Shown: positions 9,004 through 61,292, counted from the first letter of the stretch. The stretch: 64,000 nucleotides of DNA from Carcharhinus amblyrhynchos (GCA_965287045.1 OZ336885.1:62248001-62312000), one strand, 5' to 3'. Program-made: numbers and translations. The notes: generated by a model not told the origin, from the letters alone.

Positions 9004-9075
9004 CTCTGGATGAACATTCACAATCTATGTCCCTCCCTACCCTTCCTCACTGTCCCCAACATACAGCCCCCATCA
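9004..9075 (+). pseudogene. Candidate 72-nt phase-1 exon (xLDEHSQSMSLPTLPHCPQHTAPI), unit 0; diverged duplicate near 9795-9870
   Basis: Open frame and perfect GTGAGT donor at 9076; the acceptor reads CG instead of AG. Confidence 0.4.
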
Positions 9076-10429
9076 GTGAGTTTCAAAGACCAAGTCGAAT
9101 TGCACTCCAAGTGCTTTTTTTTAAATTTTAGTTTTGTTTCATATAGACGCTTGACAAATTTTAGCAGTCATTCAAGTTTAACGGGGAAGTTCCGGGAATA
9201 TCTAAAGAGAAATTACTGTCAGATGGAACAAGTTATGCATATAAGTCTGCTAAAGACCTCTGAAACCCGAGAACAAAGCATTCCTTCCTCCACTGCACCA
9301 ACCGGTCGGTCCAAATAACACCAATGCACATACGGTTGAGATAGGAATTTCGGTAATAGCTGTTTCCTGAAGTGGCATTTATTGTCGTTCCTTCTTCTTT
9401 CTGTCGCTGGATGATATTTCGTATTATCCTTTTATAATGCCCAGCTCACACAGTGCCTAATTGAAGTACTGTATTCTCATAGGCCTAAACGAGGGGCACA
9501 TATTTCCTTTTGGCTTTCGTTAAGTAAAAAAAAACCTTCGATCGGTCCGATAAGAAAGCCATCAAAACATATAAACTCACATGATGTCCTGCCTAGTTCG
9601 TTAAAATTCCAATAACGTTTAGCACCTCCCTCCAAATTACGGTTTGTTTTTCATATCTTTGGCAGAAAAAAATTGTGTTTCTGCTGCATTCCTCAAACTT
9701 TTTTTTTTGATGATGTGGGCACCTGCTGACATGCAACCCTAAGTTCACTCTGAATTCTATGGGGTCGTATGTTCATAGCATGAGAAATTTATCGCTCTGG
9801 ATAAGCATACACAACCTACAACCTCCCTGCTCTCCCATACTGCCCCCAACGTGCTGCGCCATCCCAGAGATGTCATTCTCTTAGACTTTCTATAACTGAT
9901 TACAGTTCCTCTAGGAAAAATTAAAAAAAAAACACTGCCAGTTCACACAACACGTCGATCTTCTTCATCGCCCTGTGTGGTTATTGTTAATTGCGAGCCG
10001 ACATCTTGATATTAAATGAAGGCTAGATTGGTGCAAAGAAAACCTTTCAACTACTGGAAATCGGTAATCAAATCAGACCACGCTGGCAAACTCGCAGCAT
10101 GCCTGTCAACATCTGTAGATACAGAGAGGAATGCTACAAAATCGATATGACAAATTCATGCGGACTCCAAATGTTAACTCTGATTTTTGCTCCAGCATTG
10201 CCTCTAGAAATCTAAAATTTTACAGCATTTTCTGCAGATTGACTGGAAACACAGTTTTAAGTCAATCTGTCGTGTTAAATTGAGTCAACAGAGTTTTATA
10301 TGCTGTATGATGCGTGTTCAATGACTTAGATAAAGAAACATTTGGAAATACGCGAATGTTTGCGGTTATATTCGGCTGGGCCTGTGTTATTTTGGATATT
10401 ATTTATTAGTTATAAGTAAGGTTTGCATT

Positions 10430-10665: not shown

Positions 10666-11154
10666 CCGGTCAATTAAGTCATCGGTTTTGCTCTGTGAAT
10701 AACTATCGCCGTCAAACATTTGCAGTTATCGATCACCTAAATATGCAATAATTAGTGACTTATATATAGTCAAAGAAACATTCTTTTAGCATCAATGTTA
10801 AAGATGATGTGTGAACACCAGGGGTCGGAGTGTATTTCTCCTGCATAAATACAGAACGTGGAAAGCAGGTGGACAATTCATCAAGAGCCGGTCATCATGA
10901 AGCGAAACTGGAGGATATGGATTTAAACATTCCCATAGTGGTGATGTGCTTCTGCGCGAATCCAGAAATGGAAGACTGCATGACATTTTGTCAGATTTCC
11001 GAAACTTATGTGATGCTTTCTAAAAGATGAGTTTTTAAAGGAAAAACACACGTTCTAACTCAATTGTTATATTAAAATTGAAATAAAGGATACGCAAAAT
11101 GCAACTGATATAACTTACCTATCACGACACTAATTTATCGATGTTTTATTGCAG

Positions 11155-12984
11155 CAAAGAAGAATATCTTGAAAGAGGATGGTAAATGAATCTTGCAGAA
11201 TTTTTCTTTCATACCGAAAACAAAATCTGGACATTTTCCCCATGCTAGCCTCTGACCGGCTGCAAAATTATATGTGCAGCTCTGAAAGGGTGGCAAATGC
11301 AATCTTCAGTAGGGTAAGCCATACTGGGCGCCGTTTTGCTCTGTCCGTTAACATTCTCTAAGTGAACCAATGCGCTAAGAATACTGACGGCACAAATTCG
11401 AAGTCATCTCTGCCGTTCTATCGCTCAAGTTCCAAACAATGTAGTACAATGGATAATGCTCGACATTCACCACTGTTAGCAAATTAATCCTCCTCTGCAG
11501 TAACATGAAGAAAGTTCAGTTGTGTTGTTGACGAGTGCTGACATTTGTTTTTCCCTTTACAGAGAACAATTCCGCGAGGCAGCCGGGACCCAAAAAACCG
11601 TATGGGGGTAAGAATACTTAATCTCGCCATGTGGTTTGTCAACAGACAGTCCTGCTCACGTGCTTGTTTTGAAAAAACGCAGGCTATCTGGCACGCAGGA
11701 AACATCTGTTGTTACATTATTGCAAGTTATGCCTAGTGCCTTGTGAGGGCTAGCATGAAGCTCTCACCAAGTTCAATGTATGAAACATCTTAAAGATTGA
11801 TGTACGAACATTTTGTGCTGATGTTCAGAACAAAATCAAAACAAATGATAACAGGTCTGGAATAACCGTGCGATGCAATCACCAAGTAATCGAATTCAAA
11901 TTAATCAGGAGAGAAATAATAATTCCCTTTGCTTTAACTTCACACAGCTTGCAAAAACAAACCTCTTAAATGTCTATTGTTCAATTATCAACAATATGTG
12001 TTAAATTTTAAGGCAACATTTCAGCATTTAATTTGCTTAACGCTCCCACTATCATCATCTCAGTGTATCCACTCTCAACACATAGCACACGTGTAAAAAA
12101 GAGTATGATTACTACATACTGAGATAATTATGCGAGCTACGAGTATTTCCACCAATTAATATATCTAGTTCCGATTGACCATCGTACACTGAACACTCAC
12201 GAGCAGGTTGTGCTGTTCATGTTCTCATCTATGTTTACCTTTTAAATCAGTTTCCATCTCTCCGAATTAATTTCCTTGTTTTGTGCAACGAGGAATCCTA
12301 GTTCTTGTACGTTCCTTCGCCTTAAAAAAAAAATGAAGCTCACCTTTCAACTGTCATCAATTTTAGGTAGATCTTCTGGCAAAATAATAGAATCTTGTTT
12401 CTGGAAATCCCGCGCATTTCCCAGCGATACATACACACTCTGGCCCTCAATTTGAAATTTTACACTGAATGGCTTCTTCAATGAGAGACCTGTGTGAGCT
12501 ACTTAACAATACACGTCTCTCGTCGAAATCAGCATCTGGTATTGCATTATAACTTTGCATTGAGTTTTTCGTTCAGGTACAAATTATCGTCTGATTATTC
12601 AGTTGAAGTTTATGCGCGATGCTAAAATGTTTCTTCATTTTTCCGCTTAATTTGTTGAAGAGAATATTAATTTTAAGACAACATATTTCATAATTTGTGT
12701 ACGCAACCTAACCCTGTTGAAAACTATTGGGAATAGTGATGATTAACAGCCGTGTATTTTACACACATGACAACGTAGATATCGGATTAATACAATCGAA
12801 AAAAAAGAAAGAATTTTATGGCCCATGTTTCAGAGGTGAAAAATCTGAAATAAGAGTTAAGATCAAAAGGTACTTACCAAAAAGAAGACAAAGATTGTCT
12901 TTCTCGTTCGCAGAAGATTGACATTTTATTTCTTTTGCATTTTTTTTTCCATTCAGCGATTAATTCCGATGAATTGAGACACTG
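11155..12984 (+). pseudogene. Unit 0 exon cluster of an unidentified micro-exon gene: 11155-11181 (27 nt), 11249-11452 (204), 11563-11607 (45), 12834-12869 (36), 12957-12984 (28)
   Basis: Polypyrimidine-AG acceptors and GT donors at positions homologous to copies A and B, with the same lengths (204 = 192 plus an in-frame 12-nt indel). In-frame stops in the 204- and 36-nt exons; donor lost at 11453. Confidence 0.65.
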
Positions 12985-13474
12985 GTTAGGGAAAAAATAA
13001 TCGCTGCAATCAGAATATTTCCTTCATCAGTTCAGTTTTAAATGCATTAATTCATGTTCAGATTCAGTATTCGTGATCTAAACGAAGTTTGAGCGATTCA
13101 CAGTTCTCTGCACTTAATAACAAGAACATTTGATTCTGGATCATGGTAAAAGGAGATAATTCTGTATGGCTGATTGACTGAACATGTGTGAGTGAAGTGA
13201 TCAATGTAACCGCCTGGCGAGGAGATTATTCAGGAGGAACGTGAAGTATTAGGGCGCTGACAGGATGTATAGAACTAAAACACAGCATGGAAATGTGAAA
13301 GTCTGTGTTATTGAGCATGCAATCCGTTCAATATGCTGCATATTGCATTACCTTTTCAGTGTTTGCCTCACTGAGTGTACGCATGCGTTCATGATCGCTT
13401 GAATGTGCTTTTTGGAGACCACGCACATGCTTGAGCCAGTGGTTGATTAAACATCTATTTATACTTATTCTTAA

Positions 13475-13690
13475 GTGTATGTGAATGTTTGTGTGCGCGC
13501 GCGTGTGTGTGTGTGTGATTTGTTTGTGCGCGCGCACCTGGTTTTGCATGTCTCTGTGCATGTGTGCATGTGTTTCTGTTTGTGTCCGTGTGTGTTTCGC
13601 GTTCTCCTGTGTATTTGTGCATGTGGCTGTTTGTGTCTCTTTGTGTCTATGTGTGTGTGTCTGTGTGCACTTTTGCATGTGTGCAAGTTA
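13475..13690. repeat. Degenerate (TG)n microsatellite
   Basis: TG/CG dinucleotide run; explains four spurious ORFs. Confidence 0.9.
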
Positions 13691-14739
13691 AAAAAAAATG
13701 TGTTCCTTAGAAAAGGAGGTTGTGAAAATTTTCCACATTTGCATTGGTAAACGCATTGTTTCCTGGATCAACAGTTGTACGGTAAAACAAACTGCTGAGC
13801 ATTTGGTGTTCTCAGTTGCGGGAGGGACTCTCCTTACTGCAACATATCCTCAGAGAGATTCATGTCGAGCAGGATAACTTGAGGGGCAATTCTGCACTTT
13901 ATGCAGAAAAATAATTAATCTGTTACAAACGGGCTATCCAGCAGAACAAGGCAACAATGGCATAAGCCCCATCACACGCGCTACTCTAAAATAAACTGAC
14001 GAATTAAACAAGGAAGCACTCACTTTGGGAGTTCAGACATATCCGAACTGAGTGCACTGTGAGTAATGCAACGTACATTTTAGCGGATGAGTTGGGGAGT
14101 TGGGTTTTTGAGTTACGCTCCAAAACAAGAAGTAATACGGAATGACCAATAGGTATTCGGTATTTAGAGTGTGGGTCAAATTTCAGGCGGCTAGGTTGGT
14201 ATAATCAGTCCTAGTACTGATATTTCAGTGACTCTACATGGTACTCCTGGATGGCGAAAATGGATCAGTTTGCCAATACTGCTAAACCACTCTGGCATTC
14301 ATGAATAATGGAGTTGGTAAATGGGGTAAGATCTTGCACAACCACTGCAGTTGATGATATTTGGAAAATGAACAAGAAGCCTCTCAATGGACGGCCTGAT
14401 GTACTCCCAAATTTAAGTTATTGAAATGAAAGGCCTGGGCATATTAGTAATGGATGAGCAAATTATGTCAATGAGATTTGCATTGATTTGTCGTATATTT
14501 GAGTTGTTCATGTAATGGTTCTCACTTTGGGAAGTTAATCTCGGACAAAGGGCAACACACAGTTTCGAATCCTTCCATGTCAAGTGTTGGAATTCCAATT
14601 AAATGAAAAAGAGTGGTAGTGACGAGTAAAACATAATCCTTGGCGTAATATCACATCTGGCTTGTATGTCCTGACACTTAACGTGGTGAATATGTACAGC
14701 GGTATCTCTTTTGACACCCACCAAATAAATACACTCAAA

Positions 14740-16845
14740 TTAATTGAGTGACAAATTAAAAGGGGCTGCTCCATAAAAGGAAGGGGACAGCCCGACCAAA
14801 AAAACAATTCGAAACGAAACTTAAAATATCAAATTAAAATGTGATTGTCGGGGTGTACAATGCACCCCAGTACCTGCAGAGCCCAGCGGGCGCGGAATGC
14901 GTCAACTGCGCTCGTGGACACCGCATGCTCCTTCTCCAGGGGTACCTGGCCGCGAATGTAGCCACGGTAGAGGGGCAGACAGTCAGGATGGATGGCCCCG
15001 TCGATCTCCCGCTGCCTGGGCCTATTAATGGCGCGTCTGGCCAGGCCGAATGACAGCTGCACGAGGAGGTCGTCATCCCGACTCGCCCGTCTCCGCACCA
15101 GGTGCCCATAGATTCGGGGCGTGGGACTGAAAGGCAAACAAACATTAGTAATAGAAGTTTAAGGAAACTAAAAAAATAGGTGTGCGATCTATAACACAGA
15201 AAGTAGGCATGGTCCACGGGCTTCTCGAGGCCACAGAAGGGACAGTCTTGGGACACAGCGAACCGGGAAAACCTACGGTTGTACGGCACCATTGCATGTA
15301 GCACCAACCGCGCCCCTCCCCACCCCCCCAACCCCACCACCCTACCACATGTCTGCAAGCTAATTGGAGGACAACCCCCAGTAGAGGGCCCTTCACTGGG
15401 GACGTCCGCTGGCAGGTGTCATCAAGGCCCGCCAATGTGTTTTTGGGCGACAGGTGAGCACGTGGTAGTGAAAGGTGTGCGGCATCAGCCCGTGTAGAAA
15501 ACGCCTCCGTGCGATGGAAAACGGTACAGGAGGTCAATTCCGCGAGGCCGCACATGCAGTGGGGCACCTGACTAGGCGGGTGGGGGGCGGGGAGGAGGAG
15601 GGGGATGTCTGGGCTTTGGACCAATGTGAATTCCGTCCGAGTAGGGGAACCCTCGGGCTGGATCCCACTGTACGTTTGTGCTAAATTGAGACTGCTTGCA
15701 CACTCGGGGCAGAGCATAACCATCCCAAGGTCTTGAATGGCTTTGTGCGCGCGCCAGACGGCCAGCACTGAGCGCTCAGCCAGCACGTGGGGGCTCAGCC
15801 AGCCGCTCCTCCGCCATCCAGTACGTCCCCGATCCTGGTCACCCTGGTGTGCATGGGCCTCCTCTCGGCCAGCCATCTGAGTTTGTGCGGCTGGAGCTGC
15901 AGATTTCTGAGCAGCCACTCTCGCACGAGAGCTGCTACTCCTGATGGGGGTGAGCTGCTTCGCTATGTGAATGGGTTTCCAGAAAGTGAGGAGTTCCTGC
16001 TCAAAGACGAACAAATCCCAAAAGGAGGTTGGAATGAACCTCAGGATGATATGCAGAACTGTCCGTTGTAATTGAGGCCGTGCAACTGGCGGAAGAAATA
16101 TGTTGCCAGGGCACGCTATCGTAGAAGATGCTCCATGTAAATGAATCTCTACAGTGCCTGGAGGTGGAAGGTCAATACCTGTCTGACAAGGCACAGGAGA
16201 CCTTGACAGCTGTCCCCAAGCTGGAGAAGCAGAACCTCGGCAGAGACCCAGTGCAGTTGGTTGTCCCAGAAGAACAACACGAATATTTTTTTGCAAATTA
16301 GAGACAAAGCCAGGGGGACAAGTCGTAGCGACCAGCAAGTATCACAGCATGGGAGCAACCAGCTGGTTTATGATGATAATTTTTGCCCTGTGGGACAACA
16401 CTCAGAGCAGTCATGTCCAGCTACTCAGGCAGCCATGTCTTTGGCCTCCAGCTCCCGCCAGTTCTCTGGTTAGGATTCCTCCGCCGGGCAGAGAAGGACC
16501 CCCCGCTTGAGGAGGTTGTTCCTGCTCCACGAGAAAGGCCTGAGGTCCTCCAGAATGTGGGCCATCTCCCACGGACCGACCCGGAGTCCGGAACACTGGG
16601 CCCAGATGATCCTGGCAGAGGATGCCGTGAAGTACACCTCCTAGCATTCTCGCATCCTCCGCAGGTAAGTCAGATCCGTGAACATGAGGAACACGTCATT
16701 GGCGTAAGCGGACAAGTCCACCTCTTTGTCCAGGACGCGCAGGGACAAACCGGTCAACCTCCTCGGCAAGAAGTGCAGGAATTGTTCCATGCATACAGAA
16801 TACATTTGGCTGGACAATGGACAACCCTGCAGTGCTCCTCTTCCA
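14740..16845 (-). mobile_element. Tx1-like (L1 clade) LINE, 5'-truncated and frameshifted
   Basis: Minus-strand RT remnants (QGCPLS-like near 16820, YAND for YADD near 16700) and C-terminal zinc motif DCPFCGLEKPVDHAYFLC. Confidence 0.85.
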
Positions 16846-19800
16846 AATTGAGGGACCCGTTAACCTTAAAGATATGTATATCTATGTGGTTGCCATTTGA
16901 AAGACAGCGATGCTCTCATGCCATTTTAAAATATATTTCAAGCAACACGTTAACAACGGTCAATCTGACGTTTGCAATTCTATCTAAACGTCCTTGGAAC
17001 AAATTACGGACTGTGTTATTTGGCAGTGCTAGTGGGGAAGAACAAAGCTGGTTTGGTAAAAACAACAGAATAAACAATTACCATATGATAACAGCAGGCA
17101 CATTCATAAGGACATTTGAAATGCAAGCCATCGTGCGCTAATTAAAACAAACATACAAATCATCGGCTGACCGCAGAATTGCACAGTGCCAGAGATTAAT
17201 GACTCTTTCGCAGGAGGTGTGGAAGGAGTATAAGATGCAAGTGGACGCAATCTATTCGCGACCCATTGTCTATTATGAAAATAGGGAGGATGAGGGTTTA
17301 ACTCGCAGACAATATGTCATTACAGGGAAAAAGTTCTAACAGCTGATTCATGGAGGCAACATAATTGGCAAGTACACAGGGAAAAAAAAAGCTATGCCAC
17401 AAACAATAGCCTTATTAATTCAAGAACTGTTCAGGACACGGAGGCATAAAGTGTGCATAGTCCGCAGGAAAATAAAGTCGCTACGAAGATGAGATTTACA
17501 CATTCGAATACAGATTTTGATGGTTGTGACCAGGACGTAAGTAAGAAATGGTTCAGTAGTGTTTCTGAAAAAAAAATCGCACAGTAGCACATTTTGAGTT
17601 CAACAACAAGGAAACAATGTCCGAACATATTTATTGGGAATGGGGTGAATCACATGCCACGGAAGCAAAATTTAGAGGACAATTAGAGCTCATTCATTCT
17701 CCAATGCTGCAAGATGAGTTCCAAGTTCCAACTCAACCTCATATCAGTTTGTTTCCCAAGACGACAACTTGCCAATGTTTGATTGTTGAGTTTATAAGGT
17801 CTGAAAGAAATTTAAAAAATGATGGCAAACCATTATGTGGTCACTTTAAAAAAAAAGTTTTGGGTTTCAGTGCTTAGAGACTTAAATTACTAAGTACTTA
17901 CAGAGGTCCAAACTGAATCATTTCTCTCCGAATCCAAGACCAGAAAACGGTTGTAAAATGTTTCAGGCATTTGAATGTTCGATTTTTCCTAATCAATTAA
18001 AGAAAGCACCCGCCAGGCAAGAGCCGATAGAATTTGAATTTGATAATGTTGGGGAGAAAAAAAAACAGAACTATTCTGTTGTCGAGAAAAAAAATATAGG
18101 TAACCACGGAGATAAACGAAATTGCAAGCGGAGCTCACGGGTCAGCAAACCCCACCTCGCAGGTCAAGAGGAAGTCTACAGCTCTCCACCCTTTCAGCTG
18201 TCTGCGTGTCTCACGAGAACACACCAGCAAAAGACCAAAATTAATGAAATCAGAAAGAGATCACAAACAGAGGGAGTACACAAAAGAACTCCTAAAGATT
18301 TCTAAAGACACCAAGCCTAGTTCTATTTTTTTGACAGTGGTGGAATTCCATTTTTTTTTTTAGTTAATGAATGATTATTATATTTAGTTGAACAACGGTT
18401 CCAGGAGAATCTTACTTTATTTGGTATGTTACTTGTTTAATTATAGTTCCATATTATGTAAGGAAAAGAAAAACTAGCGAGACTCATAGATGTCTTGTTG
18501 TTAATTATAAATCGTTACGGGAGGCCAGTTCACTTCCCCACTTTCTTTGAACAGATTATGTGGCAAATTTATTATCTTTGGGGATTTCGACAGAATGTCT
18601 TCAAGGGGAACAACCTACTCATCGTAAAGTGCTGTGGACTCGGGTCTGGGATCTCAACATTCCTGGGTTTAAAAAGTAAAAGTGATCACATGTCTATTAG
18701 CAATGGTAAAGAGATTTTTGTGCTGAAGATACTTGCCAACATACACAAACTTCAGAGAAAGAGACAAAGGTGACAAATGTAGAAGTAGCAAACAGGCTAC
18801 TTGAATTTATGCACAGGTAATAAAGTATCTCAAATAGCAACGGAGTTAGCCAAGCATTTGAATGTATCCGATCATCAGTCTGGTGCGGTGGAATTCGAAA
18901 TAAAAACATAAATTGCAACCGAGACAGTTGATAAGGAAGTGAACTCAGAATTACGGGTTCAGAAGCTTGGAAAAAGGGGAAAAAAGAAATAGAAAAATGC
19001 AAAAGCGAAATAAACAGAGAGAGACAGAGAGAGAAGAAGAGATATAGAGGGAGAGAAAGAGAGAGGTTTTCGCCGAAGAAAAAGGGGGAAAGTAAAGGTG
19101 GCTTGTTTTAGAGAAATCTCAATTTGGATGCTGAATCAAGAAGATTTCAAATGACAGAAGGAAGAGTACCACATTGAACTGATAATCAGCAGTGTCACCC
19201 TTGCACCCGCCTGGCGAGGGTATATACAACTATCTCCAAACATGTCTAAAATTTGATGAGAAAGATGCAGACGTGTTTTTCATCTCTATTGAGAAATGAA
19301 TTGGCTACACAGATGAACTGACCACAAGAGGTATGGGTAATGTTAATTCAGGCCGTGTTGTTAGGCATTGCTAAAGGCTATGTTTTTCTTTGGGAGATGA
19401 CAGAAAGGTATGAAGAAGGGATGATTTTTTTTTAGTACTTAGCAATTACTACCAGAAGCATATATAAAACGATTCCGAAGTCTAAGGAAATAACTAGGTC
19501 AGTCCTATATCGAGGTTGAAATAATTAAGCAGTACGACTTCAATGGATGCGTTAGAGCATTGAACATGGAAAAGACATATGCAAACCGTGGTGATAGGAC
19601 ACTGCTGGGGGAGTTTAAAAACTAACCTCCGGCAATGATAAAAACTCATGTTGAGTATTAGAAAGATAACAGAACGACAAGGCCTGCAGAGATGTTGGAT
19701 GGCTATGCATTAGTGCACAAATTCAAATTTGGTTGCTGGCAACAATTTGAGTCCGTGCCGGATAGATATTGAGAAGAAAAAGAGAGTTCCTTCAATGATA

Positions 19801-19944
19801 AGAAAGAAAAATGTGGCCCACACTGGGAGCAGTTTATCACGAGTGAATAAATGCACTCAAGAGTTTGCCAAAGAGATGAAAGACCTCAAATATTTTCACT
19901 GTATTTAGTAGGGACAAACACAAAGGTTTACGGAATCCTAAATT

Positions 19945-20245
19945 GCAGTAGGAGGCCATTCCGACCCTCGAGTCTGCACTGAACAGAACTCCACCATGCC
20001 TTATCCCCACATCCCTTTGCATATTCCCTGCACATCCATTGATACTACAACACACTTTTTGTATGGCCAATCCACCTAACCCGCACATATGTGGACTGTG
20101 GGAGTACACAGAAAAACAGGAGGAAACCAACACAGGCACCAGGAGAAGGTGAAAATTGCACGTAGACGGTTACCCAAGCAGCAAATCGAAAACGGTTCCA
20201 TGGCGCTTTGGGGTAGCAGTGCGAACCACTGCGCCACAGTGCAGC
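19945..20245 (-). mobile_element. V-SINE nested in Gypsy gag
   Basis: Reverse complement V-domain (TGGACTGTGGGAG...GGAGGAAACC) and head (AACCACTGCGCCAC). Confidence 0.85.

Positions 20246-29822: not shown

Positions 29823-29823
<1 letters not shown>

Positions 29824-29850
<27 letters not shown>
29824..29850. repeat. (TA)n microsatellite
   Basis: Direct observation. Confidence 0.9.
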
Positions 29851-47279: not shown

Positions 47280-47800
47280 AATAACTCTAAGCTTCTCGCT
47301 TTCCAAATATGCCACGGAACAGCCCACTGCCCTGAATGCACGAACGCTACCGATCCCGCAGTCCCATTATATGATCCACCTCACGAGAAGTGAATGACCG
47401 CAGCACCCTCCTGGAAGTGCACCAATCCCTAAACTACCCAGCCCAAACAGGCGCGAGAAACTCCTCCCGACCCAAACACTTGTCAGAGCCGACAACCGTC
47501 AAACTGAAGAGTTCAAGAAACGATTAGCATCGAAATTGCCCACCCAATGTCGCACCACATGATCAGATCTGCCCCCACACCCGCCACGTTGACCATATAC
47601 ATGGCACAAATTCATTCGAACCAGCAGTTCCTCAAGTATATTCTCTGAATCCTGTTGACCCCCAATCTATTGCACATCCCAACATAGCTAGCAGGCTTCC
47701 CCCTCCAACTTGTCGACCAGATACGGGAGGAGAACGACATAACCTTACTCCATTAGCTGCCCCTTGCAAGATTGACAAGTGGCATGTTCGTAGCCACATT
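47280..47800 (+). mobile_element. Possible L2-like endonuclease remnant (also 63600-64000)
   Basis: ALNARTL motif and C/A-rich composition; weak. Confidence 0.3.
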
Positions 47801-48007
47801 CACATAGTCCATTCATGTATCTCAAAATTTTACATTCTAACTTTCAATGGGATATTTAAACTGATTTACTTAATGCCACAATCAATGCTGTGGAAACGCG
47901 GCATGCTAGGATTTACTCCACTCATTTTGCACTTTGGTGCATTGGCCCACAAATAGCATTGCTTCTGTTGTCTCACCATGTATGACTGAATCATTTCCAC
48001 AATACAG

Positions 48008-48914
48008 CTTCTGCCCATTTTGAGCACGGCGAAGTCGCTTCTTTGGAGATGAAATACGCTGCTGGATCACCACGCCAAGGAAGTTGTGGTAAAATTGTTT
48101 AAAACGATCTGTGCTTTTTTCATAACCCCATATCCTTTTATGAATTCATCTGTCAGCGATAACTGAGAATCTGATGGATTCCCACATGCAATATTCACAT
48201 TAGACAGCACGAGTCAGCCACATGTAGGGAAAATTATCTCCTCAGCAGTTCAGGTGAGTTTTTTATTGGATCGCGAGCTATAGTTCTGCTATGCCTTCTG
48301 AATCGGACTCTGCTGCAAACTTTGTCAATAGTACATGCCTTCTAACCCTTTACGAATTTGTACAGCTCTTTCGACTCTCCTCTTAATCCTCATCGCTGGA
48401 GCAACATTGTCAATGTTCCCATATTATTTTTTCGGAAATGTATGCACAACCCTACGATTTCTGCTATGCAGCGAAGGTCAAATCCATCTCGCGTTTTATA
48501 AGTCAATACTATTCACCCCTGTTTGCATTCCAATAATCTGGTAAGTAATTGGTGCAAATTATCAGTTTCTCATGCCTTCAAATCTGTGTGCGTGCGTGTG
48601 TGTGTGCGTGTGTGTGTGTGTATTTGACTGTGCGCATGTCTGCGAATGTAGCCATTTGTTGCAGTTTTCTCAGATCGTAAATTTAAATTGAGCGCGATAT
48701 CACTTACATTTGGGGAATGCTGTGCCAAGAAATGCAATTCCCACTTCTGAAACTCACTCAATGTTTTCTCTTCTGCCATATGCCTGTCACTTTGATTACT
48801 CGTTCGAGAGCTCCAGAAGTCTGTCTCGATTCTACAGGACTGTCCGCTTGTTGTTTCATTCAGCAGACCGGTCTGTGCAGGCAGTGGAAGTATCCCCTGC
48901 CTGCTTCAACGATG
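48008..48914 (+). pseudogene. Upstream candidate exons of copy B: 48008-48088 (81 nt, open), ~48157-48253, 48366-? (hydrophobic), 48472-48540 (69), 48867-48914 (48)
   Basis: Donors GTAAAA, GTGAGT (48254) and GTAAGT (48541); CTAAC branch point plus acceptor at 48365 followed by LSTLLLILIAGATLSMFPYYFF. Single copy, so no comparative support. Confidence 0.4.
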
Positions 48915-51654
48915 GCACTAAATTCAATCAGCCGATTAACTAAGCGATTAGTACAATAGTGACTGGTGGCAACATAATTGAGTTATTCTCATCATTTCAC
49001 TGCTTAAAAAATGCTACTGAAATATCAGTGTTAAATTGATAACATTCTGCGCTCTTTGCATACTCATCTTCGAAGTGCTACAGAACGTACACTTAGGACA
49101 GACACTTTATCCGCTGATGTTTAGGAGGAAACGCGATTAGGATGACAATGGAGGAGATGGAGAAGCTTGAAAATTACACTGGTTAAGGAGTTGAACTAAA
49201 TATTACTGTCACATAGTTGATTGTCTTGCTAGCAATCTGGTAACAACCGTACAATTATGTCAATCTGCAGAATCCACTGAGACAATAACGAACATCTGTC
49301 GTTTTATAGAAATGCAATCAATCACTTAGTTGGTGGAATGCCAGGAAAACACGAAGTTTTTTTTTGCGGTATATGAGTTTCTAGTTACGCCATACTCTTC
49401 ACTCTATCAACAACATTGGTCGTCAAACATTTGCACTGCCAGACAGGTGAAGATCCAACAATGAATAGCTAACGTTTGGTCGAAGAACACGTCTTTTTGG
49501 AATTAATGTTAAAGGGGATGAGCAAACACCATATTTTGGAAAGTATTTCCCACATCTAAAGAGCAAAATTTTGAAAGCAAATGTACAAGTCAGTAAGGAG
49601 AACGAGAAAATACGGATGAAAACATCCCAACGGGTTGCAGGTTTTCTGAGGAAAACTACAAACAACACATTTAATTTAGTCAATGTCATTGTACAATTTG
49701 CCGAGCTGTTTTTTCTCCATTTCGAAAGCAATTGGTACATGAGAATTAAAGCATGTTTGGTGAATATGCACGAATGGAACTGCTACGGCGCCCCAATCAT
49801 GTCATTAATTCACTTCATTACAACAAACCGAAATATCTCGAAACAGGATGGTAAACCAGTCATCCTGAATATGTTTCCTTTCAATAACGAGTCAACTTCG
49901 GGACGTTTTCTTTCTGGTAGCCTCTGATCTTCTACAAAATCATTTATGTGAAGTCGAATAGGTGACAAATGCACCCTTCAACTGGGAGAGTCACATTGGT
50001 CTGGCCGTTAAAGTTTTGACAGTGAACCGAAGCAACAAGAATGCCAACGACAGAAATTTGAAGACGCCTCTGCAATTCTATAGCTTAAGTGTCGAGCCAT
50101 CTAACAAAATGGGTAAGAGCTCTGCATTCACTCTTGTAAGCAAATGAACTCATCTCTGCAGTTGAAATTTCAGAACATTTACATATATTGTTTTCAGCGA
50201 GATTTTTTTTTTACTTTCCAGAGAGAAATTTGGTGGCACAAACTGGCCCTGGAAAGCAGCATTCAGTTAAGAATAGTACATCTGGGCTTGTGGTTCGGGA
50301 ACAGAATGATGTTACTCACGTAAGCGTTGTGACGGAACAGGGTTTATAAAAGGCAGGAGCCATCTTTGGACTCATTATTGCAACTTATCACAAATTTCTT
50401 GTCGGAGCTATCATAAAGCATGCCAAATTCAATGTGTGAAACGGGCTGAAGTTTGAAGAACAACCGTTTTGTGCGGGTGTTCATACTGAAGTTTCGGTAT
50501 TTATGTATATATACATATATCGATAAATAATATATATGCATACAGATACCGTGAAACTGCAACATCTGTTTCGAGATCGATAGAATTCTTTCAAGAGGAC
50601 AAATCCTCTCTGCATAAACCCTCTAATACATTATATATATAATATGTATATATAATATATAAAAAGTTAATACGTCTGGAAACAGCGATTGATGCAATCA
50701 CCAGCATGTGGAAATCAAATGATTCAGGAGAGAAAACATATTTGTTTTTTTTTCCTTTAACTCCCTTAGCTTACAATTCAGTTGCATCTTTGAGGAATGA
50801 CAATAGTTTTTTTTAAATCGATATAAAATCTTCAGAGGTAATTAGCAATAGCGAAAAAAATTGTGTAACATAATGCAACATATGATTCTTGCATTTTGCA
50901 GCAAATGGTTAAAGTGAGAAAGCAAAAAAAAACAGGCAACATCCATTAAAGTCGTGGAAAAAAAAAGTTAGGAAATTTAACGTAACGATGAGTGAGAATG
51001 AGCGTAGTAGCTTGTCCGCCAATCAACAGAATCATGGCTTCACTTCTTTTGGCCTCGGCACGACATTTCTTCTCTTTCAAAATTGCATTTCAACCAATTA
51101 CGAATAAAATATTTGTCCACCTCCTCCTTACATTTACTGACTGTCCCGACATCCAACTGCCGTTTGAGGTATTGAAATGAAGAGTTGCATGCGGATGGAA
51201 TGAATTAATTTCATATGATCTATGTTTTTAAGCTTTCGAGAGCTTATCGTTGACTACACCATGTGTTTCGAGATCGATGGAATTCTTTCAAGAGGACAAA
51301 TCCGCTCTGCATAAACCCTGTAATACATTTCAGAATTTGGTAAGTCCCGATCACATTGTCCCTCACTACTAAACTGGAGGGGTAGAAGGCTCAAACTATC
51401 GCTTTTAAACACTTCAGCCATCTCTGAAATTCATTCTGGTGAGCCTTCTCTGAAATGCATCTAACGCAATTACATAATAACAAGTACCATCACCAAAAAA
51501 TGTGCACAATTTTCCATGTGCGCTGCTCGTAATTGTATCTACTTTTTCCTGCAAAACTCAACCACTTTCTTCCTACGTTACTTTAGCATCGAATGCCAAA
51601 ATTCAGTTTTCCTTCCTCATTAACTGGGAAATGTATATACACGTTTGCTGCATA

Positions 51655-53900
51655 TAAGGGAGTGCTGTTGTCAGCTGACCACCATTTCGCAGAAGCTGAG
51701 CGCCAACTCTCAAATACTTAATTTTGCATTCCCCTGGACCATGATCACACCACTGAACATCAAGCTATTATCTGCAATGCCGTGACCAACATCACTTCCT
51801 CCGGCTGCCCTCCGCCCACAGCGTTCAACCTCATATTCGCTCAATCCTGGACTGCCTGTTCCTACGTACTTCCGAAAATCCACAAAACAGGACTGTTCTG
51901 GTAGGCCATTTGTGCCAGCATGTTCCTTCCCACGAAACTAATTTCCTCTTGTCTTGGTCGCATCCTCACTCCACTGGTCCATTCCCTCCCTACCTACATC
52001 TTAAATTCATCGGATGTTGTACATCATATTGACAGCTTCCAGTTTGCAGGCCCTAAGCGCCTCCTACTCACCATCGGTGTGTAATCATTCTTCACCTCCA
52101 TCCCACACCACGATCACTTGAGGGTTTTTCTCCTTTCTTTTTTGAAAAACAATCCTGAACAATTCTCATCCAAAACCAGTCTTCTCCACCTGGCGGAACT
52201 CATTTTTCTCTGAAGAACTTCTCCTGTAACTGGTCCCTCTTTGTCCAAATCAAAGGCGAAGATATGCGGACCTGTTAGGTCCCTGCAATGTTAGTCTTTT
52301 TTTTTCTCATGGGTTGCGGGAAATATTGTTTGTTTCAGGCCTCCGCTCCCACAACTCCTTTAAAAGTGTATCAGTTAGTATTTCGGTGCGGATTCATGCT
52401 CTCATGGTTGCTGGGGCAGGGGGCGGCGGGGTGGGCGGGGGGGGGGGGGGAGAATCAACTTTCCTCCCAGTTTCCACCCATCTAGCACCTTCACCTGGTT
52501 CACCTCAGGCCCATGTCTTTCCTTCCTTCGCATTTCTGTCTCCATTTCTGCCAACACTCTTTCTAGCAGTACTCGTTAAAAGCCCAATCACACCCGGAGA
52601 AATCTGGACCACATTCATTGCATCTTTTATCTTCTGAATACCCAATAACCCTTTCCCTCAGCTCCTTGGCATCTGTCGCATTTCTCCAGCCGATGTCAAT
52701 TTCCAAGGTGATGCATCTGACATATGCTCCTTCCGCAACCATGGCTTCCCACTACAGTGGACGACAGGGTTCTCAACAGCAGGCGACCCATTTCCTGCGC
52801 TCCTACCCTCAACCCCTCCCCTGCTTCCCAATACAACGCTAAATTCCCCATTGTTCTTGCGTATCACCCAACCAACTGCTACATGCAAAGCATAATCCTC
52901 CACCATTTTTGCCGAACACAGTGTGATGCCACCGTCAAACGCGCCTTCACTTCACTCCCTCTATCACAATTCCACAGAGATTGTTCTATCAAAAATACCC
53001 TAATTCAGTCCTCCACGAGAAATAACAACTCTCCCATTACCCATGGTACTTTCCCATTGAATCACAAAAGCTACAATGCCTGCCTCTTTACCCCTTCAAT
53101 ACTTATCATCCAAGTTTCAAACTACTCATTCAAGTTGCAGCATGGCTTGCAGCTTCTTCAAATTGGCCTATTACACACACTGCTTCTCATCTTGTCTCCT
53201 CCATATCGGAGAAACCTAACGTAGACTGGGTGATCACTCATCTGAGCACATTTGGTCTATGCGCAATCATAACTCTGACTTCACATTTTCACACGGAATC
53301 TTTCTCCCATGCCCACATATCTGTTATTGATCTGCTGCAATGTTCAAGTGAAGCTCAACACATTCAGGGGAAAAAAAAAACAGCTCACACCTTGAGCTCG
53401 GCACATGACAGCGTTCAGCAACTCCTGATGATTGGCTTTACCCCATCTCGAAACCTTTTTTTATTTACTTTTTATTTTTTTTATTTTAACTGTTCCTTAC
53501 TTTTCCTTCATTATTGTCTATCTTCATTTTTCTCCAGGCTACAATTCCCTCCCCAAACCCCTCATCCCCTCTTTCCGTATATATCCTCCCCTATTGCTTC
53601 CTTTTTCACCATATTTTCAACTTTACACCCTCCAGTCCATAAATCGTCATCTGCCACACCTAACTCTCTGATTTCAATTTTTTCTTCGTTTGGTCAACCA
53701 CATCTTCTAATTTACCACAGACTTCCATTACCAGCCTTTCCTCCTGTTTTGTGCCTATATATTCCTTCACCCTGCAGTGTATGCAATTCCCATTTTGTAA
53801 GCATTTTACCTTTGACAAGGGACCTGGGCTCCAAACGTCTGTTTATTTTTCTTCTCTCTCCTTGCAGATGCTGACAGACTTGCTGAGATTTTCCATCTTT
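51655..53900 (+). mobile_element. Penelope-like element, copy B counterpart of 30757-32970
   Basis: YVLPKIHK, GRPFV and GIY-YIG remnant; same insertion site as in copy A. Confidence 0.85.
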
Positions 53901-55451
53901 TATTTTCTTTTAGTTACAAGTTTGTTGCAATTATACACGAGCAAAACCAAAACTTCTATAGCCGAACACTCTGAAGTTTCTTTCAGTTTAGAATTAAACT
54001 GCCTTTCCATCGTATTTTTCCGACCAAAATCGATAAATTCGTGTGTTTCAATGTTCAATTCCATGCAGCAAATGTTGGCCCATCCAACAATAATATTAAA
54101 TTGAAAATGCAACTTTGTTTTATGATTTTAATTCCTATTTCTTTTGTGTTAACTACAAATTAGCTGTGCTATCTTACATCCTGGGCTCCATGTCAATCAT
54201 ATGCAACATAATTATTTGGTAGCCCAAGAACTAATACTATGACCCCTCACGTGGTCCCCCGTGCCAACCGAAAAAAAAAGGCCCATATATCCCAACTTTC
54301 TGTGTTCTGGTTTTTCACAAGATATCAGGTCATTCCTAACTCCACGTGATCTTATCATGTGAATTAAGTTTTAGTGGCGCATCTAGGCAAATGTCTTCAA
54401 AAAGTCCATTCTCCACCTAATTCCAGTTGAGAAACAGCTGCGCTCGCCACCCCATCGCCACCACCCTCCCCCCCGCCCCCCCTCCGCGACTCCGCCCGCC
54501 CTCCGGCCTCCTCTGAAGTTTCTCATTGGAGCGTGTTAGGGAATCCGTGTATTCAGCTGAAATTCTGTTCCATGAGTGTGCATTTTTCTCCGACACCTTC
54601 TGCTTTCAAAATTTCTCAGTCCAGCAGTAACAATAATACAAAAAAAAATGAATATACAGCATCAAAGTAAACATTTATTTTCATACGCAAACTTGTTCCA
54701 GAGGTAGGATCATGTATATGGACCGCTGCACATTGGAAAAATAAATATTGAAAGTTACTCAGGATTATACATTTCAAGGTCAAAGCTTAATTTATTTGTA
54801 ACTTTGTAGTTTTTTTTAATATATTGTATATGTGTTCTAAGTTATACATAAGAGGCCAAGTGAAACACTTTGTTTGCTCACCTTCGTATAAATATCAATT
54901 GCAGGGTTTGATGACTATTTCCAAAGTAGAACAGTGTGTCTGTTATGTATCGTAACACTTCCAAAACTATTCTGCATCTTGCTCTCGGGAAATTTTTTAT
55001 ATTTTTTCACCACAAATTTGCTCTCTTTATTCCTTACCAAATCAGCACAGCCTCAAATTGATATGAGTCTATGCTTACGAGGTACTCAACACCTCTGGAT
55101 ATATAACTGACAAACCAAGTTCTCCGGCAATGGCCTCTCAGTGAAGGTCTGCGAAACAATCCATGTGTCTACTTTTTTCGTGTTAACTGACTTCGTTTTA
55201 TTCCCTAATCCGTCCAAAATTCTGGTCCAGAGCTTTTACACTTTATTTAATGACCATAACTCATTTCACTTGCCTGATTCGTTTATGTCAAACAATGTTG
55301 ACATCTTCTGTCATTTCATTTTATTTATTGCTAACAATGGGACTAATCACTAACATTCATTTTTACCCTCCCCTTAAAGGTTATTCTTCTTATTGTCACA
55401 TGCAACTTTACTTCACCCTGACGCCCTCATACGATACACACGCACAAACAT

Positions 55452-55452
<1 letters not shown>

Positions 55453-55515
<63 letters not shown>

Positions 55516-55524
55516 ACACACACA
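55453..55524. repeat. (CA)n microsatellite (shorter homolog at 36037-36058)
   Basis: Direct observation. Confidence 0.95.
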
Positions 55525-58500
55525 TTAGCAAAAAAAAATCTCTTTGTGATCAGAGTTCTGCGATTTACCTGGACGCTTGTGCCAACATGATTCATTTGGA
55601 ATGTACCTGAAGGAAATGTTCGGTTGCCAATGTATCAATAAATAGAACATATTTCCCCTACGCGAACGTGTGAGCCACGCAATTACCTCTGCATACTTAT
55701 AGGCAGTTAGCACATATCTCGTGGCTCATGCCAATAATCTCTTGGTTCAGACATTATTATCGTTTCTGTTACGTTACTTAATTTGGTTCCTGGCTGCTCG
55801 TATTCCTTCAGTATAACAACAATCCATATTTTCATCCCTCTTCAGTTCTCTGAGCATTATCTTGGACGTTCTGAACACTTGCAGTGGCCAGCCAATATGA
55901 ACAGAATCTCCATCAGGGCCAAAGTGTACAGTGTCTATGCCTCAGACTAACAGATCACTAATTAAGTTATAATTCACCTTTCTAACCCGACCTGAATTTT
56001 TTTCCGATATCAGGACATTATGCTCAGATTTATGCAAACAGATTCCACGAAACACAATACGTTTTGTCATGGACAAGGGCGAAGTCTCCTGGGACGCATG
56101 CCTGTGGATCTCTCTAAATGCTTGAATTGTAATCGCTGCATCCTTCCCATGACTACTTGCCGAATTCATGGTGGTTATTCCTTGTGGTTTGATTGTCTTC
56201 TGAAACATAGCATCAATAGAACTCTCCCCTTACCTGACGCATCACCATATCTGTGGATCTGGCACCAAATCAAGATTCTTAACCACAGTTCCTCGATAAT
56301 GCAACACCTGCATAATGCCTACTCATGCGGAACGGTGATGGTGTACAGAAGTTTCATATGGTTCACGTACAGATCGTCAACTGACCCCGAATCAATACTT
56401 TGATTATGTTTCAATTTGCTATTAAAGTTTATCCGTTTTTATTTACTTTCTTATAAATCATCTATTCAACTTTAATCTCACAGAAATTAAGAGAGGGCGC
56501 TTTAAATTCAGTTCACTTCAACCAATGTATTTACAGTTTTCCTTTGATGGCACTCTGGTGCTCACTTCGTTGCGTCGTCTCATTGTGCCCGACTATCTGG
56601 ATCTGCAATATATCAGGGTGGTTTTGCTCTATAATTTAGCTTGGCCTTGGAATGTCCCTATCGACAAACTTTCTACAACAAGATAATGTCTATTGTTTCT
56701 TAATCTGAGACAGAAAGGTATTCAACTCCGCCTGTCCAATTGTACAATTGATTCAAACGAGTTCCATGGCATTACAGGTTAAAACAAAATACATAACGAG
56801 AAAAACAGAAACGAATTATTGCTGCTCTGTCCACAGGGTGAGTGCTGCCTGACGGTGTGAGAGTGTTTTTGGAGTTTGACTGGGACATGTTTTTTTTTCT
56901 CTCTCTGGAGCATAGGAGGCTCTTTCAGAATGTCATAATATAACGAAGGGGACAGATCAGCAAGATAGTCAGTATCTTTGTCCGACGGTAGTGGAGTCTA
57001 AAACAAGTGGGCATAGGTTTAGGGTGAGAAGGGCGACAAGCAAAAGTGTCCAGAAGGACAATTTCTTTCCACAGAGGGGGAAAATGCCTGAAACAAGCTA
57101 TCAGAGGTAATGGTAGGAAGGGTGCAATTTTGTGTTTTAAAAAACATTCAGAAATTTGCATGGGTAAGATGCGTATTCAGGGATAAGGACCAAATACGGG
57201 CAATTGGGATTAGTTTAGTGTTTAAAAAGGCCGACATGGACAAGTTGGGCCGAATGGCCTGTTTCCATTTAGTTAACGTTTATGACACTATGACTCTCTG
57301 ACAGAATGCTATGACATGTGTTTCAGAGCTGGAAAGGTTCAATGAAGTTTTAAGATCAGCGGGTACGTATTGAATAATGATTGCATGCCTCGTTACAAGG
57401 AAATCGATATGTTCTTTTCATTTTTCAACGAACTTTAAGTGATTATTACTAAGAAGTGAAGCAATTGTTCCGTAAGAATTAATCTCTACCATCAGAATAA
57501 TTTTCGAATTTTTCCAGTGTTAAAAACATACGTTCATGTTTAGATTCAGTTATTGTATTCAAAACAAATTCTGAGTTAGATAGTGCATTGCTTTAAACAA
57601 TAAGAACAGCTGATTCTGACGCACAGTAAAACCACATGATTTTGTCCGGCCGATTGGCAGACTCTATGTGAATGACGCACTCAATGTAACAGTCAGCCGA
57701 GGAGGCATTTCAAGAGGGATGCGAAGGAGGCCCGACCTATGAAAGTGAAACAGAGCATGAAGATGGGAACGGATGTGCTATTGGACAGTTAAGTGTTCAG
57801 TATGTTGAAGTGCATGGCCTGATTATTTTAAATTTCTGGGCGAGTGCCATGTCGAACAGGTGAGTAGAAATGGCCAATCTGCAGTTTAACAAAATGCAGA
57901 ATCTGTTATAAACGAGCAAGTCAACAGAACAAGGCATCTTTGACATAAACCGAAACAACACGTGTGCTTCGCCGGACGGAAATAAAAAATATCTGTCGAA
58001 TGATCAAAACCACTTGTCAGCTGTGGAGTTCAGGTATATCCATCTCACTCCACTGTGATTGCGACAGCGTACAGGTTGTGTATTGTTGGGGGAGATGTAA
58101 TTATAAATTGCCGTCCTACGCAGAGAATACCAAAAAGAACAATACTGAACAGAATTTCTGTTTTTGGATCAATGTTCGAACAGCCACATAGGAGTGCTGA
58201 ATCTGCGATTGGACGGGTACTCAGTATTCTGGGAATGCGCCCGCGGCGTTGGGTTATTAATAGAGATTAACACCAGTGGCATTGGTAAAAATTGGAGATG
58301 CTAAATAAAGATGATGCTTTTCTTTTCGAAAATTAACAAGTAGGCTCTTGAAGGTAGTCCTAATGAACTTCCAAATCTATACATGAATCATTGAACGGAA
58401 AGTTTATGGCATATTAAGAATAATTCGTCAGTTGTTGACAAGGGAGTAAGTATAGAAGTGTCGATTTTCCGAGTGTTTGCGGTAATGGTCCTATCATTAG

Positions 58501-61292
58501 GCATGTAGTCTTAAATGAAGCGTTATACAGCGTTTCGATTCCAAACGCGGCAGGTGGTGCAATTCGGATTAAATAGAAATGTTAAGTTAGAATTCTAACT
58601 ATGACCAATAAAACAGTATGTACTGGCATAGCATTCCATCTGGTTTGCAATGCATAGTCGGACCTATGGTTAAAATGCGTAATGTGATGTACACCAACGC
58701 AGTTGGTGTACTACCACGAAACGCTGACGCTTGTTTTTCATACTTCAATCAGCTCTGTGATATGTGGAACATTTAAGGTCAGCTATTCAATTTAAGCAGG
58801 CTTGGGCCAATTTAGTACCAGCGTGATTTAGTGTTTCAGTGAAGAATGACTCAACAAAAATTAACATTCACGGCACACAAATGCTAGCACCAAAACGAAG
58901 CACCGTAACAACTCTCCCTTCACATTCAGTGATAGTACATCACTGAATTCCCCATATCAACATATTGGTGTTACCAATGGCCAGAATCTCAACTGGACTC
59001 ACCACATTAATACAGTAACTACACAGCGCTCAGTGGCGAGGAATACTTCGGCGAGTAACTCATCTCCAGACTCCCCAAGTCCTATCCACCAAGTCGCAAG
59101 TCAAGATTGTGATGGAATACGCCCTTTTTATCTGGATGGGTGCAACTCCAAAAACACTCAAGGTGCTTGACGTCATCCAGGATAAAAAAAAAGCCTACTT
59201 GATGGCAAAGTATGTACAAACTTCAGTCCCTCCACCACCTACGCTCAGTAGCGGCAGTGCCACTGACGAAAAGACGCACTATAGCAATTCCCAAAGATTT
59301 TTCGGTGGAACCTTCCAAACCCACGACCACTTCCATCCAGAAGGACAAGGGCGGGAGATACATGGGGAAACCACCACCTGCACGTTCCAGTTCAAGCCAC
59401 TCTTGGAATAATATAGCCGTTCTTTCACAGTGGCTGGCTGAAAATCTTGCAGTTCCCTTCATAACGGCATTGTAGTTCAATTTGCAATACGAAGACTGCA
59501 ACAATTCATGAAGGCAGATCAGTTCCACGTTCCCAAGGGCGACTAGGGATGGACAGTAAATGCTGGGCAGTCAGCGACGCCCATGTCCCAGTAATGAAGA
59601 AAGACATGGCAAAAAATAAAATCAGAAGGAAGACTTGCAATAAATCGATTATCAAAATATACTGCATAATTAACATATTTTTTCAAAGATTGTGTTTTAT
59701 TTTCGCAGGATAATTTGAACCGTGTCGCCTGGCCATGGGTGCTGAGCTCTGTGAATATGTTAAAACTGAAGCTTTTCTTCCAATATTTCCTGCAGGTTGC
59801 CGCAATCACATTCTACACGCCAAACCAGTAACCACGCAACTTTCCACGATGCAGAATACATCGTGATGCTCATGTATCAATTGTTCATTATGAAAGAAAA
59901 AACATTTGCTCTTGTTTCTTTTAAGTTTATTAGAAATTAATTCAAAAGGCATAGCTTCGGGTAGAAACCCTGAAGAATCCGTTTGGAAGATGTGTAAGTT
60001 TGAGTGATGGTTAACGAAACCTTCTCAAGTAATTACAGTTCCACTGATGTAGGAATGAGAAAGCGTTGGGATGAGTTTCCAAAAAAAAGTGGAAACTATG
60101 TTAATATGCTGTTGTTGATTGTTGCTTAATTTCCGTTGAACGCAATTGCACTGTATCACTTGAACCTATAGATACCAAGTTGTGCAGTGGACGGGATTTC
60201 TCAATTTGTTGTACATTTTCCATGTAACCAAACTTTAGCTTCCAATTTTAATGCGTCTCTCGAGATTGTTCATGTTGATGAGAACATTTTCTGTTACGTT
60301 ACCCGATTCAGAATTACTTCATTGGCATCGTTTCCAGAATGAATCATTAGATCTGATAACCCAATCCGAAACAATTATTCTAGATCAAATAACTCATGGA
60401 TATCTCATTCGACATAGATACACTGGCATTGCTCGATGTGAAATCTGACATCATCTTTTTTTTGCTGGACAGAGATGACGATCCAATCATCTCCAGTTGC
60501 AAAAAAAAATACACGTTTTATGTGATCACTCCAAAATGGAGTTCAGTCTTCAGTAGTCTTTACAATCTCACAGGCCAGCCAGGTACACCCATCATAAGTT
60601 TACCCAGTGGGCATTTATGCACATTCTGATATAATGAACGGCACTTTTCCAGTCGATTTGATTTGAATCAGCAAAGCTCTGACTCAGTCCAATGTTACCA
60701 TTTTATTCCACAATGCAATCGTTTATTTCTCGATTGTAACCCAGGAAGTTGTTTTGCTGAGGTAAAGTCCAGGGAACACAGAATATTTCAGCATCGTGTT
60801 CTCATAATGCTAAGCCATCAGCCACTGCACTAGCCTTTTATGCAGTATCTTTGCAGGAGTAAAGACGACAGGTCGTACTTCTGAAAAAAAAAGTCACACA
60901 TCATTATGGAACAGCGCAACAAAAGCCATGAAATGCTATCTCTTTGTTGCAATTCGGTACAACTCGAAGTAACTGATTTGAGTTAGGACCAGATGAAATG
61001 CCTGTACAGGAGAAACAATATAACAAATACGTCATTGAATGTGTTTTCAGATTTATTATGCCCAAGATCGAAATGTGATTTCTTCTCAAATGGCACAATT
61101 TGATCCAGATGAAGTTGGAGCAGCACACCTCGTACCGAATTTACTTACAGAATTGCGACATCATTTATGAGGAGAAATATTGCCAAATTAATTTCGAAAA
61201 AAAAAACAAATCATTAACTTTCTTGTAAGTACCGACTGCTAGATATGAAGCTGCACAATGCCAAATGAAGATTCCGCAATTCCCCGATTATT

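What the first reader, a model, noticed from the sequence alone, without database searches (positions are those of the whole stretch)
9004..59866. Tandem family of an unrecognised micro-exon gene built from symmetric phase-1 exons
Seen: three paralogs keep splice signals at homologous positions with identical exon lengths (27, 192, 45, 36, 28, 158 nt to stop; unit 0 has a 12-nt in-frame indel in the 192-nt exon), although unit 0 is visibly much more diverged. Several introns are very short (~65-110 nt). The ORF track misses this almost entirely. Known: strings of short symmetric phase-1 exons occur in butyrophilin/BG heptad tails, TSBP1, titin PEVK, triadin and elastin. Inference: a birth-and-death multigene family, possibly a lineage-specific membrane receptor; I cannot assign a family.
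Basis: partly seen in the sequence, partly recalled or inferred. Interest (0 to 1): 0.7.

Follow-up and report, generated by a model that had tools for sequence, protein, structure and literature searches.

The report
Dead tandem gene array, unknown parent
Five side-by-side copies of what was likely once a small-exon protein gene lie here; every copy is broken or incomplete, the candidate exons have changed as fast as the DNA around them, and no intact relative turned up, so this is likely a gene fossil rather than an active receptor family.

Summary
The repeats are real, and larger than reported: five units (u0, A-D; C and D run past the window). A-D are 85-87% identical, u0 62-65%. Every copy is disabled or incomplete. 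Exons are barely more conserved than introns (u0: 65.5 vs 65.0%), dN/dS equals the non-coding background (0.57-0.88 vs 0.74-0.81), and private changes are 27% synonymous against a neutral 24%. No paralogue appeared elsewhere in the genome and no homologue in three word-index searches, one HMMER search, Pfam or PDB; shark coverage of those libraries was not verified. Identity jumps from ~60-70% to ~85-90% just before the last exon, which points to unequal crossing-over between two old paralogues making hybrid units. Verdict: likely a pseudogene array of an unidentified phase-1-exon gene; 'receptor' is unsupported.

The parts
10674..14664 (+). Unit u0 (old paralogue X), 5' block; 62-65% identical to A-D, continues at 16867-17039 after a retrotransposon
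11155..11181 (+). u0 candidate exon, 27 nt, AG/GT intact, open
11249..11452 (+). u0 candidate exon, 204 nt, donor GT>AT, one stop
11563..11607 (+). u0 candidate exon, 45 nt, intact and open
12834..12869 (+). u0 candidate exon, 36 nt, signals intact, one stop
12957..12984 (+). u0 candidate exon, 28 nt (27 in A, B, C), so out of frame with the phase-1 chain
14829..26662 (.). Transposon block filling u0's last intron (GC-rich LINE-like piece, labelled Tx1/L1-like from recall; dispersed repeats at 18066-23081, 24042-25745, 25846-26662)
27630..27693 (+). Array boundary: identity of u0 to the ends of A, B, C rises from about 60-70% to about 85-90% in the 30-60 nt before the last-exon acceptor; inferred crossover point
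27694..27851 (+). Last exon, 158 nt to stop, open; first copy of the amplified segment
28461..28747 (+).
28801..42609 (+). Unit A; lacks the block that B holds at 45083-49455
29168..29194 (+). A 27-nt candidate, acceptor AG>AA (shared by A-D)
29265..29456 (+). A 192-nt candidate, acceptor AG>GG, open; an in-frame AG 33 nt upstream (29232) would give an open 225-nt exon
29563..29607 (+). A 45-nt candidate, open
29948..29983 (+). Extra 36-nt candidate (B 50770-50805), not kept in u0
33851..34170 (+). Open frame of 106 codons with a hydrophobic stretch; its 3' part is an old internal duplicate of 10699-10843 / 49416-49582; present in A, C, D only
39639..39778 (+). A 36-nt (39639-39674) and 27-nt (39752-39778) candidates, intact and open
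40172..40815 (+). LINE fragment at the same site in A and C, empty site in B
42503..42609 (+). Last exon of gene copy A: 12-nt deletion, then interrupted
42610..44120 (+). 1.5-kb LINE inserted in that exon, 5-nt target-site duplication
44121..59650 (+).
49824..50266 (+). B 27-nt (acceptor lost), 192-nt (stop shared with D) and 45-nt (donor GT>TT) candidates
57327..57466 (+). B 36-nt (open) and 27-nt (stop) candidates
57450..58650 (+). 1.2-kb block shared by u0, A, B, C; stops in every frame, several at the same place in u0 and A-C; likely intron, not a large exon
59709..59866 (+). Last exon of gene copy B, 158 nt, stop in its first full codon
59867..64000 (+). Start of unit C (spacer, private LINE at 61293-61864); C and D continue to about window position 88400

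Best explanation
This is a tandem array of five broken or incomplete copies of what was likely a protein-coding gene with mostly 3n, phase-1 exons, likely made by unequal crossing-over and evolving without detectable selection. Shown: five units, their lesions, and neutral-level change. Inferred history: an old duplication gave paralogues X (u0) and Y (about 0.5 substitutions per site apart); a misaligned crossover 30-60 nt before the last exon copied the segment 'X last exon + spacer + Y body', and a burst of further crossovers (star tree, about 0.15 per site) left hybrids A-D; stops, frameshifts, lost splice sites, LINEs and an LTR element then accumulated. It likely makes no protein today. 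What the parent protein did is not shown; my best guess (about 0.3) is a low-structure, possibly membrane-anchored protein with a tyrosine-motif tail.
For: Units and identities. Lesions in 5 of 5 copies: u0 two stops, lost donor, 28-nt exon; A 4.4-kb deletion and LINE in last exon; B three stops; C 35-nt deletion and stops; D stop and truncation. Exon vs intron identity u0 to A-D 65.2-65.9% vs 64.5-65.9% in the E27-E45 block; over all blocks 65-66% vs 62-64%, and among A-D 86-90% vs 85-87%. NG86 dN/dS 0.57-0.88 on 83-236 codons per pair, all 20 bootstrap intervals reach 1; non-exon background 0.74-0.81. Private changes: 39 synonymous of 144 (0.27) vs 0.24 neutral, p = 0.21; no branch below p = 0.18; A's core exons 1 of 16 synonymous. 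Boundary step in identity. Mosaic signal: LINE shared by A and C but not B while the 5' block groups B with C at 85/92 (not a starred fork). Exon ancestry: chain test passes in A and D; gap openings 1-3 in 276 exon columns vs 19-23 in 1060 intron columns. No further paralogue in G000 for four protein queries or in +/-300 kb; the same search found 148 matches down to about 30-40% identity for a dispersed repeat.
Against: No parent gene was found, so coding ancestry rests on splice signals and open frames that were picked by eye. The chain test fails in 3 of 5 copies. No X-type counterparts of the 39-, 188- and 57-nt candidates were found in 40 kb upstream, and no Y-type last exon in 75 kb downstream of D, both of which the crossover model expects unless deleted. 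The only lesion shared by all of A-D (27-nt acceptor) is harmless to frame, so it is not shown that Y was dead before the burst. Samples are small: weak selection cannot be excluded. Stops are somewhat fewer than neutral (3 seen, 5.8 expected). Expression was not testable.
Confidence: 0.7

Rival explanations
1. It never coded for protein: a non-coding region (or a spliced non-coding RNA) was duplicated, and AG/GT pairs with 3n spacing were picked out by eye.
For: No homologue or domain anywhere; exon identity equals intron identity; no codon-position bias; chain test not significant in u0, B, C; AlphaFold model of the 192-nt exon has pLDDT 49.
Against: Chain test beats 100 of 100 shuffles in A and D; strong donors and pyrimidine tracts around 67-110 nt introns; indels depleted in exons and the one u0 indel in E192 is in frame.
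Confidence: 0.18
2. Copy A, or a transcript spliced across units, is still expressed: symmetric exons can be skipped without losing frame, and A's spliceable internal exons are all open.
For: A has no stop in its six internal candidates, and a new in-frame AG 33 nt upstream of its lost acceptor.
Against: A lacks the upstream block, its 39- and 188-nt candidates carry stops, its last exon runs into a LINE and stops after 74 codons, and its branch has 15 non-synonymous to 1 synonymous change in core exons. About 1.5 stops would be expected, so zero is unremarkable (my estimate).
Confidence: 0.07
3. One reading: a living birth-and-death family of a lineage-specific membrane receptor with intact members elsewhere in the genome.
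For: Tandem same-strand array with hybrid units, as described for chicken BG genes (PMC4046983, passages); a hydrophobic stretch near 33880-33950 in A, C, D; tyrosine motifs in the last exon; N-glycosylation sequons in several A-D exons.
Against: No intact member in 5 of 5; none elsewhere in G000; no receptor domain in Pfam scans; hydrophobic stretch absent from u0 and B.
Confidence: 0.05

Closest known systems
Duplicated (non-processed) pseudogene arrays made by unequal crossing-over (general knowledge, recalled)
   Same: Intron-exon layout kept, same orientation, hybrid units, stops, frameshifts, lost splice sites, neutral change.
   Different: No functional parent found in the genome or in the libraries searched.
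Chicken BG genes / butyrophilins (PMC4046983, passages seen)
   Same: Same-strand tandem array with hybrid genes from unequal crossing-over or deletion; many small exons.
   Different: BG genes are expressed and have a V-like domain, a transmembrane region and repeated 21-nt tail exons; here exon lengths are 27-204 nt, they are not repeats of each other, no V domain was detected and all copies are broken.
Schistosoma micro-exon genes, MEGs (PMC4015677, passages seen)
   Same: Short exons that could be skipped in frame.
Ankyrin repeat
   Same: A 33-residue part of the 192-nt exon aligns with designed ankyrin repeats and one ankyrin protein.
   Different: Per-domain E-values are about 8-11, the database hit is E = 0.38 over 22% of the query, Pfam finds nothing, there is one repeat only and the predicted model shows a single helix at low confidence.

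Membership tests
Duplicated pseudogene array | Disabling lesions in each copy | tested here: met
   5 of 5 copies
Duplicated pseudogene array | Neutral sequence change | tested here: met
   small samples
Duplicated pseudogene array | Homology to a functional parent gene | tested here: inconclusive
   none found; chondrichthyan coverage of the libraries not verified
Duplicated pseudogene array | No translated spliced transcript | not testable with these tools
   no RNA holder listed, which is no evidence either way
Birth-and-death multigene family | Repeated duplication | tested here: met
   five units of two ages
Birth-and-death multigene family | At least some members retained as functional genes | tested here: not met
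   0 of 5 intact; none elsewhere among the candidates scored in G000
Butyrophilin / BG | Ig V-like ectodomain | tested here: not met
   no Pfam hit at E <= 0.5 in three + frames of the non-repeat parts scanned
Butyrophilin / BG | Repeated 21-nt heptad tail exons | tested here: not met
   lengths 27, 192, 45, 36, 36, 27, 158; no exon-to-exon repeats in self-BLAST
Butyrophilin / BG | Transmembrane exon | tested here: inconclusive
   one hydrophobic stretch in A, C, D, judged by eye, splice borders weak
Micro-exon genes (MEG type) | Most coding sequence in micro-exons | tested here: not met
   192 + 158 nt of 485 nt lie in two ordinary-sized exons
Micro-exon genes (MEG type) | Splice variants by exon skipping | not testable with these tools
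   no reads
Ankyrin-repeat protein | Two or more 33-residue repeats above Pfam cut-off | tested here: not met

The most novel reading that the evidence does not exclude
The array is the fossil of an undescribed, fast-evolving cartilaginous-fish gene family built from symmetric phase-1 exons, with no homologue in current protein libraries, that is still intact and expressed in related species, possibly as a membrane adaptor with a tyrosine-motif tail.
Probability: 0.25. Interest if true: 0.45.

Novelty: new member of a known kind. Interest (0 to 1): 0.16.

Why it matters
As it stands it matters little: a dead array. It is a clean small example of hybrid units made by a crossover just before a last exon. 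It would matter more if an intact orthologue exists in another cartilaginous fish, because the exon coordinates here would then point to a vertebrate gene family that Pfam and the protein libraries searched do not hold.

Tried and rejected
1.2-kb block (57450-58640) as one large exon: a frame with fewer stops was searched; no hit except a repetitive single-contig ORF (P0001, rejected), and stops at the same places in u0 and A-C argue against coding. Much of the homology budget (2 of 3 word searches and the one HMMER job) went on this likely non-coding block; only the 192-nt exon got a library-wide search (proteins of 119-2000 residues), the 158- and 188-nt exons only PDB, Pfam and own-genome searches. 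One search used the wrong frame by my mistake. TIR, Schlafen, sushi, SH2 and Mab-21 likenesses seen by eye: no Pfam support, dropped. Ankyrin likeness: below significance. 129-codon open frame at 56014-56400: a dispersed repeat (148 matches); its angiogenin match (E 0.02) rejected. Structure prediction: pLDDT 49, no fold search run. Atlas: no answer. RNA: no RNA holder listed, not evidence. Rfam: 0 matches. Synteny: no cellular gene recognised in 664 kb, but only 126, 129 (chosen from 298 candidates plus 4 window frames) and 141 (of 3008) ORFs were scanned, so neighbours may have been missed. Earlier findings of the scan: nothing in five look-ups. Literature searches (listings only, apart from passages of two papers) showed no description of this array; subscription papers and bioRxiv supplements were not visible.

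Full report
Setting. The window is G000:C16:62248001-62312000 of a 2.92-Gb genome in 1520 contigs. I fetched 300 kb on each side. Positions above 64000 continue the window's numbering.

The repeats. Self-comparison shows five related units on the + strand: u0 (10.7-14.7 kb, resuming at 16867-17039), and a segment that starts at about 27634 and recurs at 42442, 59650 and about 77600, ending at 88400 where an LTR-type element cuts copy D. A-D are 85.0-87.0% identical over 5,473-10,934 aligned columns (JC 0.14-0.17), u0 is 62.1-64.5% identical to them (JC 0.48-0.53); the tree of A-D is nearly a star. Old repeats (56-71% like their relatives) are shared by the young units, younger LINEs (86-99%) are mostly private.

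The exon candidates. 28 of 33 splice dinucleotides are intact in the three window copies. The 27-nt exon's acceptor is AA in 4 of 4 young copies; A lost the 192-nt acceptor, u0 the 192-nt donor, B the 45-nt donor. The '28-nt' exon is 28 nt in u0 only. Further candidates are 57 nt (B, C, D), a second 36 nt (A-D), 39 nt and 188 nt. A chain score for 3n, phase-1, open exons beat 100 of 100 second-order Markov shuffles in A and D but not in u0, B or C (15, 21, 12 of 100). A whole-unit count of strong acceptor-donor pairs gave 8 on +, 4 on -, against 2.9 +/- 2.0. Indels are fewer in exons (1-3 in 276 columns vs 19-23 in 1060). The splice scores are my own simple weights, and the candidates were chosen by eye, so these tests make exon ancestry likely without proving it.

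State of each copy. u0: stops in the 204- and 36-nt exons, lost donor, out-of-frame 28-nt exon. A: internal exons open and an in-frame AG 33 nt upstream of the lost acceptor, but 4.4 kb of upstream sequence is deleted, the 39- and 188-nt candidates carry stops, and a 1.5-kb LINE with a 5-nt target-site duplication sits in the last exon. B: three stops. C: 35-nt deletion in the 192-nt exon and further stops. D: the stop shared with B, and truncation.

Selection. u0 against A-D: exon identity 65.2-65.9%, intron 64.5-65.9% in the E27-E45 block. NG86 dN/dS is 0.57-0.88 for the ten pairs in two exon sets, every bootstrap interval reaches 1, and non-exonic columns give 0.74-0.81 by the same method. 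Private changes on the four young branches are 102 non-synonymous, 39 synonymous and 3 stops; the synonymous share 0.27 does not exceed the neutral 0.24 (p = 0.21). Against this reading: exons are 0-4 points more conserved than non-exons over all blocks, stops are fewer than the 5.8 expected, and codon numbers are small.

How the array formed (inferred). The last exon after u0 (27694) is as close to the young copies as they are to each other, while sequence 30-70 nt upstream of its acceptor is only about 60-70% like theirs. The simplest reading is a misaligned crossover between old paralogues X and Y just before the last exon, which amplifies 'X last exon + spacer + Y body'. A LINE shared by A and C at a site empty in B, against a B+C grouping in the 5' block (85/92), fits repeated crossovers. 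Missing pieces: X-type upstream exons and a Y-type last exon were not found. Chicken BG genes show the same kind of hybrid formation (PMC4046983, passages).

Identity of the parent. Not found. Own-genome protein searches with four pieces and DNA searches with four stretches returned only this array, apart from repeats and two matches at E 0.3 and 5.6 that I inspected and rejected; the same search reached 30-40% identity on a dispersed repeat. Library searches gave nothing credible, nor did Pfam or PDB beyond a weak one-repeat ankyrin likeness. Most of that budget went on a 1.2-kb block that I later judged non-coding, and I did not verify that the libraries hold cartilaginous-fish proteomes, so the blank is weak evidence of novelty. 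Hints of a membrane protein (hydrophobic stretch in A, C, D; sequons; tyrosines in the last exon) were seen by eye and are not enough to name a function.

Verdict. Observation partly confirmed; interpretation partly supported. Best reading: a pseudogene array of an unidentified gene (0.70); never coding (0.18); one copy still used (0.07); living receptor family (0.05). Interest 0.16.

Noticed in passing
L008:4400-7600 (window position about 88400-91600): Broken LTR-retroelement or retrovirus-like element on the - strand (RNase H and zinc-knuckle Pfam hits) that cuts off unit D.
   Followed up: partly
L073:1410-5143, - strand (about 248 kb upstream): Retrovirus-like element with long open frames of 746 and 513 codons (protease, reverse transcriptase, zinc knuckle), so probably young. 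Described only.
   Followed up: partly
window 42503-42730: The LINE in copy A's last exon is in frame with the exon's phase-1 reading, giving a fused frame that stops after 74 codons.
   Followed up: partly
window 10699-10843, 34006-34179, 49416-49582: An old internal duplicate (about 65% alike) occurs twice per young unit and once in u0; no match elsewhere among scored candidates. Possibly the remnant of a further ancient copy.
   Followed up: partly
L007:4390-4676 (window position 78390-78676): Small inversion at a deletion breakpoint in unit D.
   Followed up: no
window 9148-9305: 158-nt AG...GT stretch inside a 123-codon open frame upstream of u0; no clear counterpart in A-D, no Pfam hit.
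   Followed up: partly
   Followed up: no
window 1479-1576 and 2623-2717: Inverted pair, 92% alike over 98 nt, flanking about 1 kb of repeats.
   Followed up: no
L024:5000-6800 (about 14 kb upstream): CpG-rich island with stop-free frames on both strands (142 and 70 codons), no Pfam hit; may mark a neighbouring gene's promoter.
   Followed up: partly
window 48855-48980: Most conserved 100-nt stretch among B, C, D (97%, mean 86%); not significant over 563 overlapping windows, unique to the array.
   Followed up: partly
window 56014-56400: 129-codon open frame that is a dispersed old repeat with 148 matches in the genome.
   Followed up: yes
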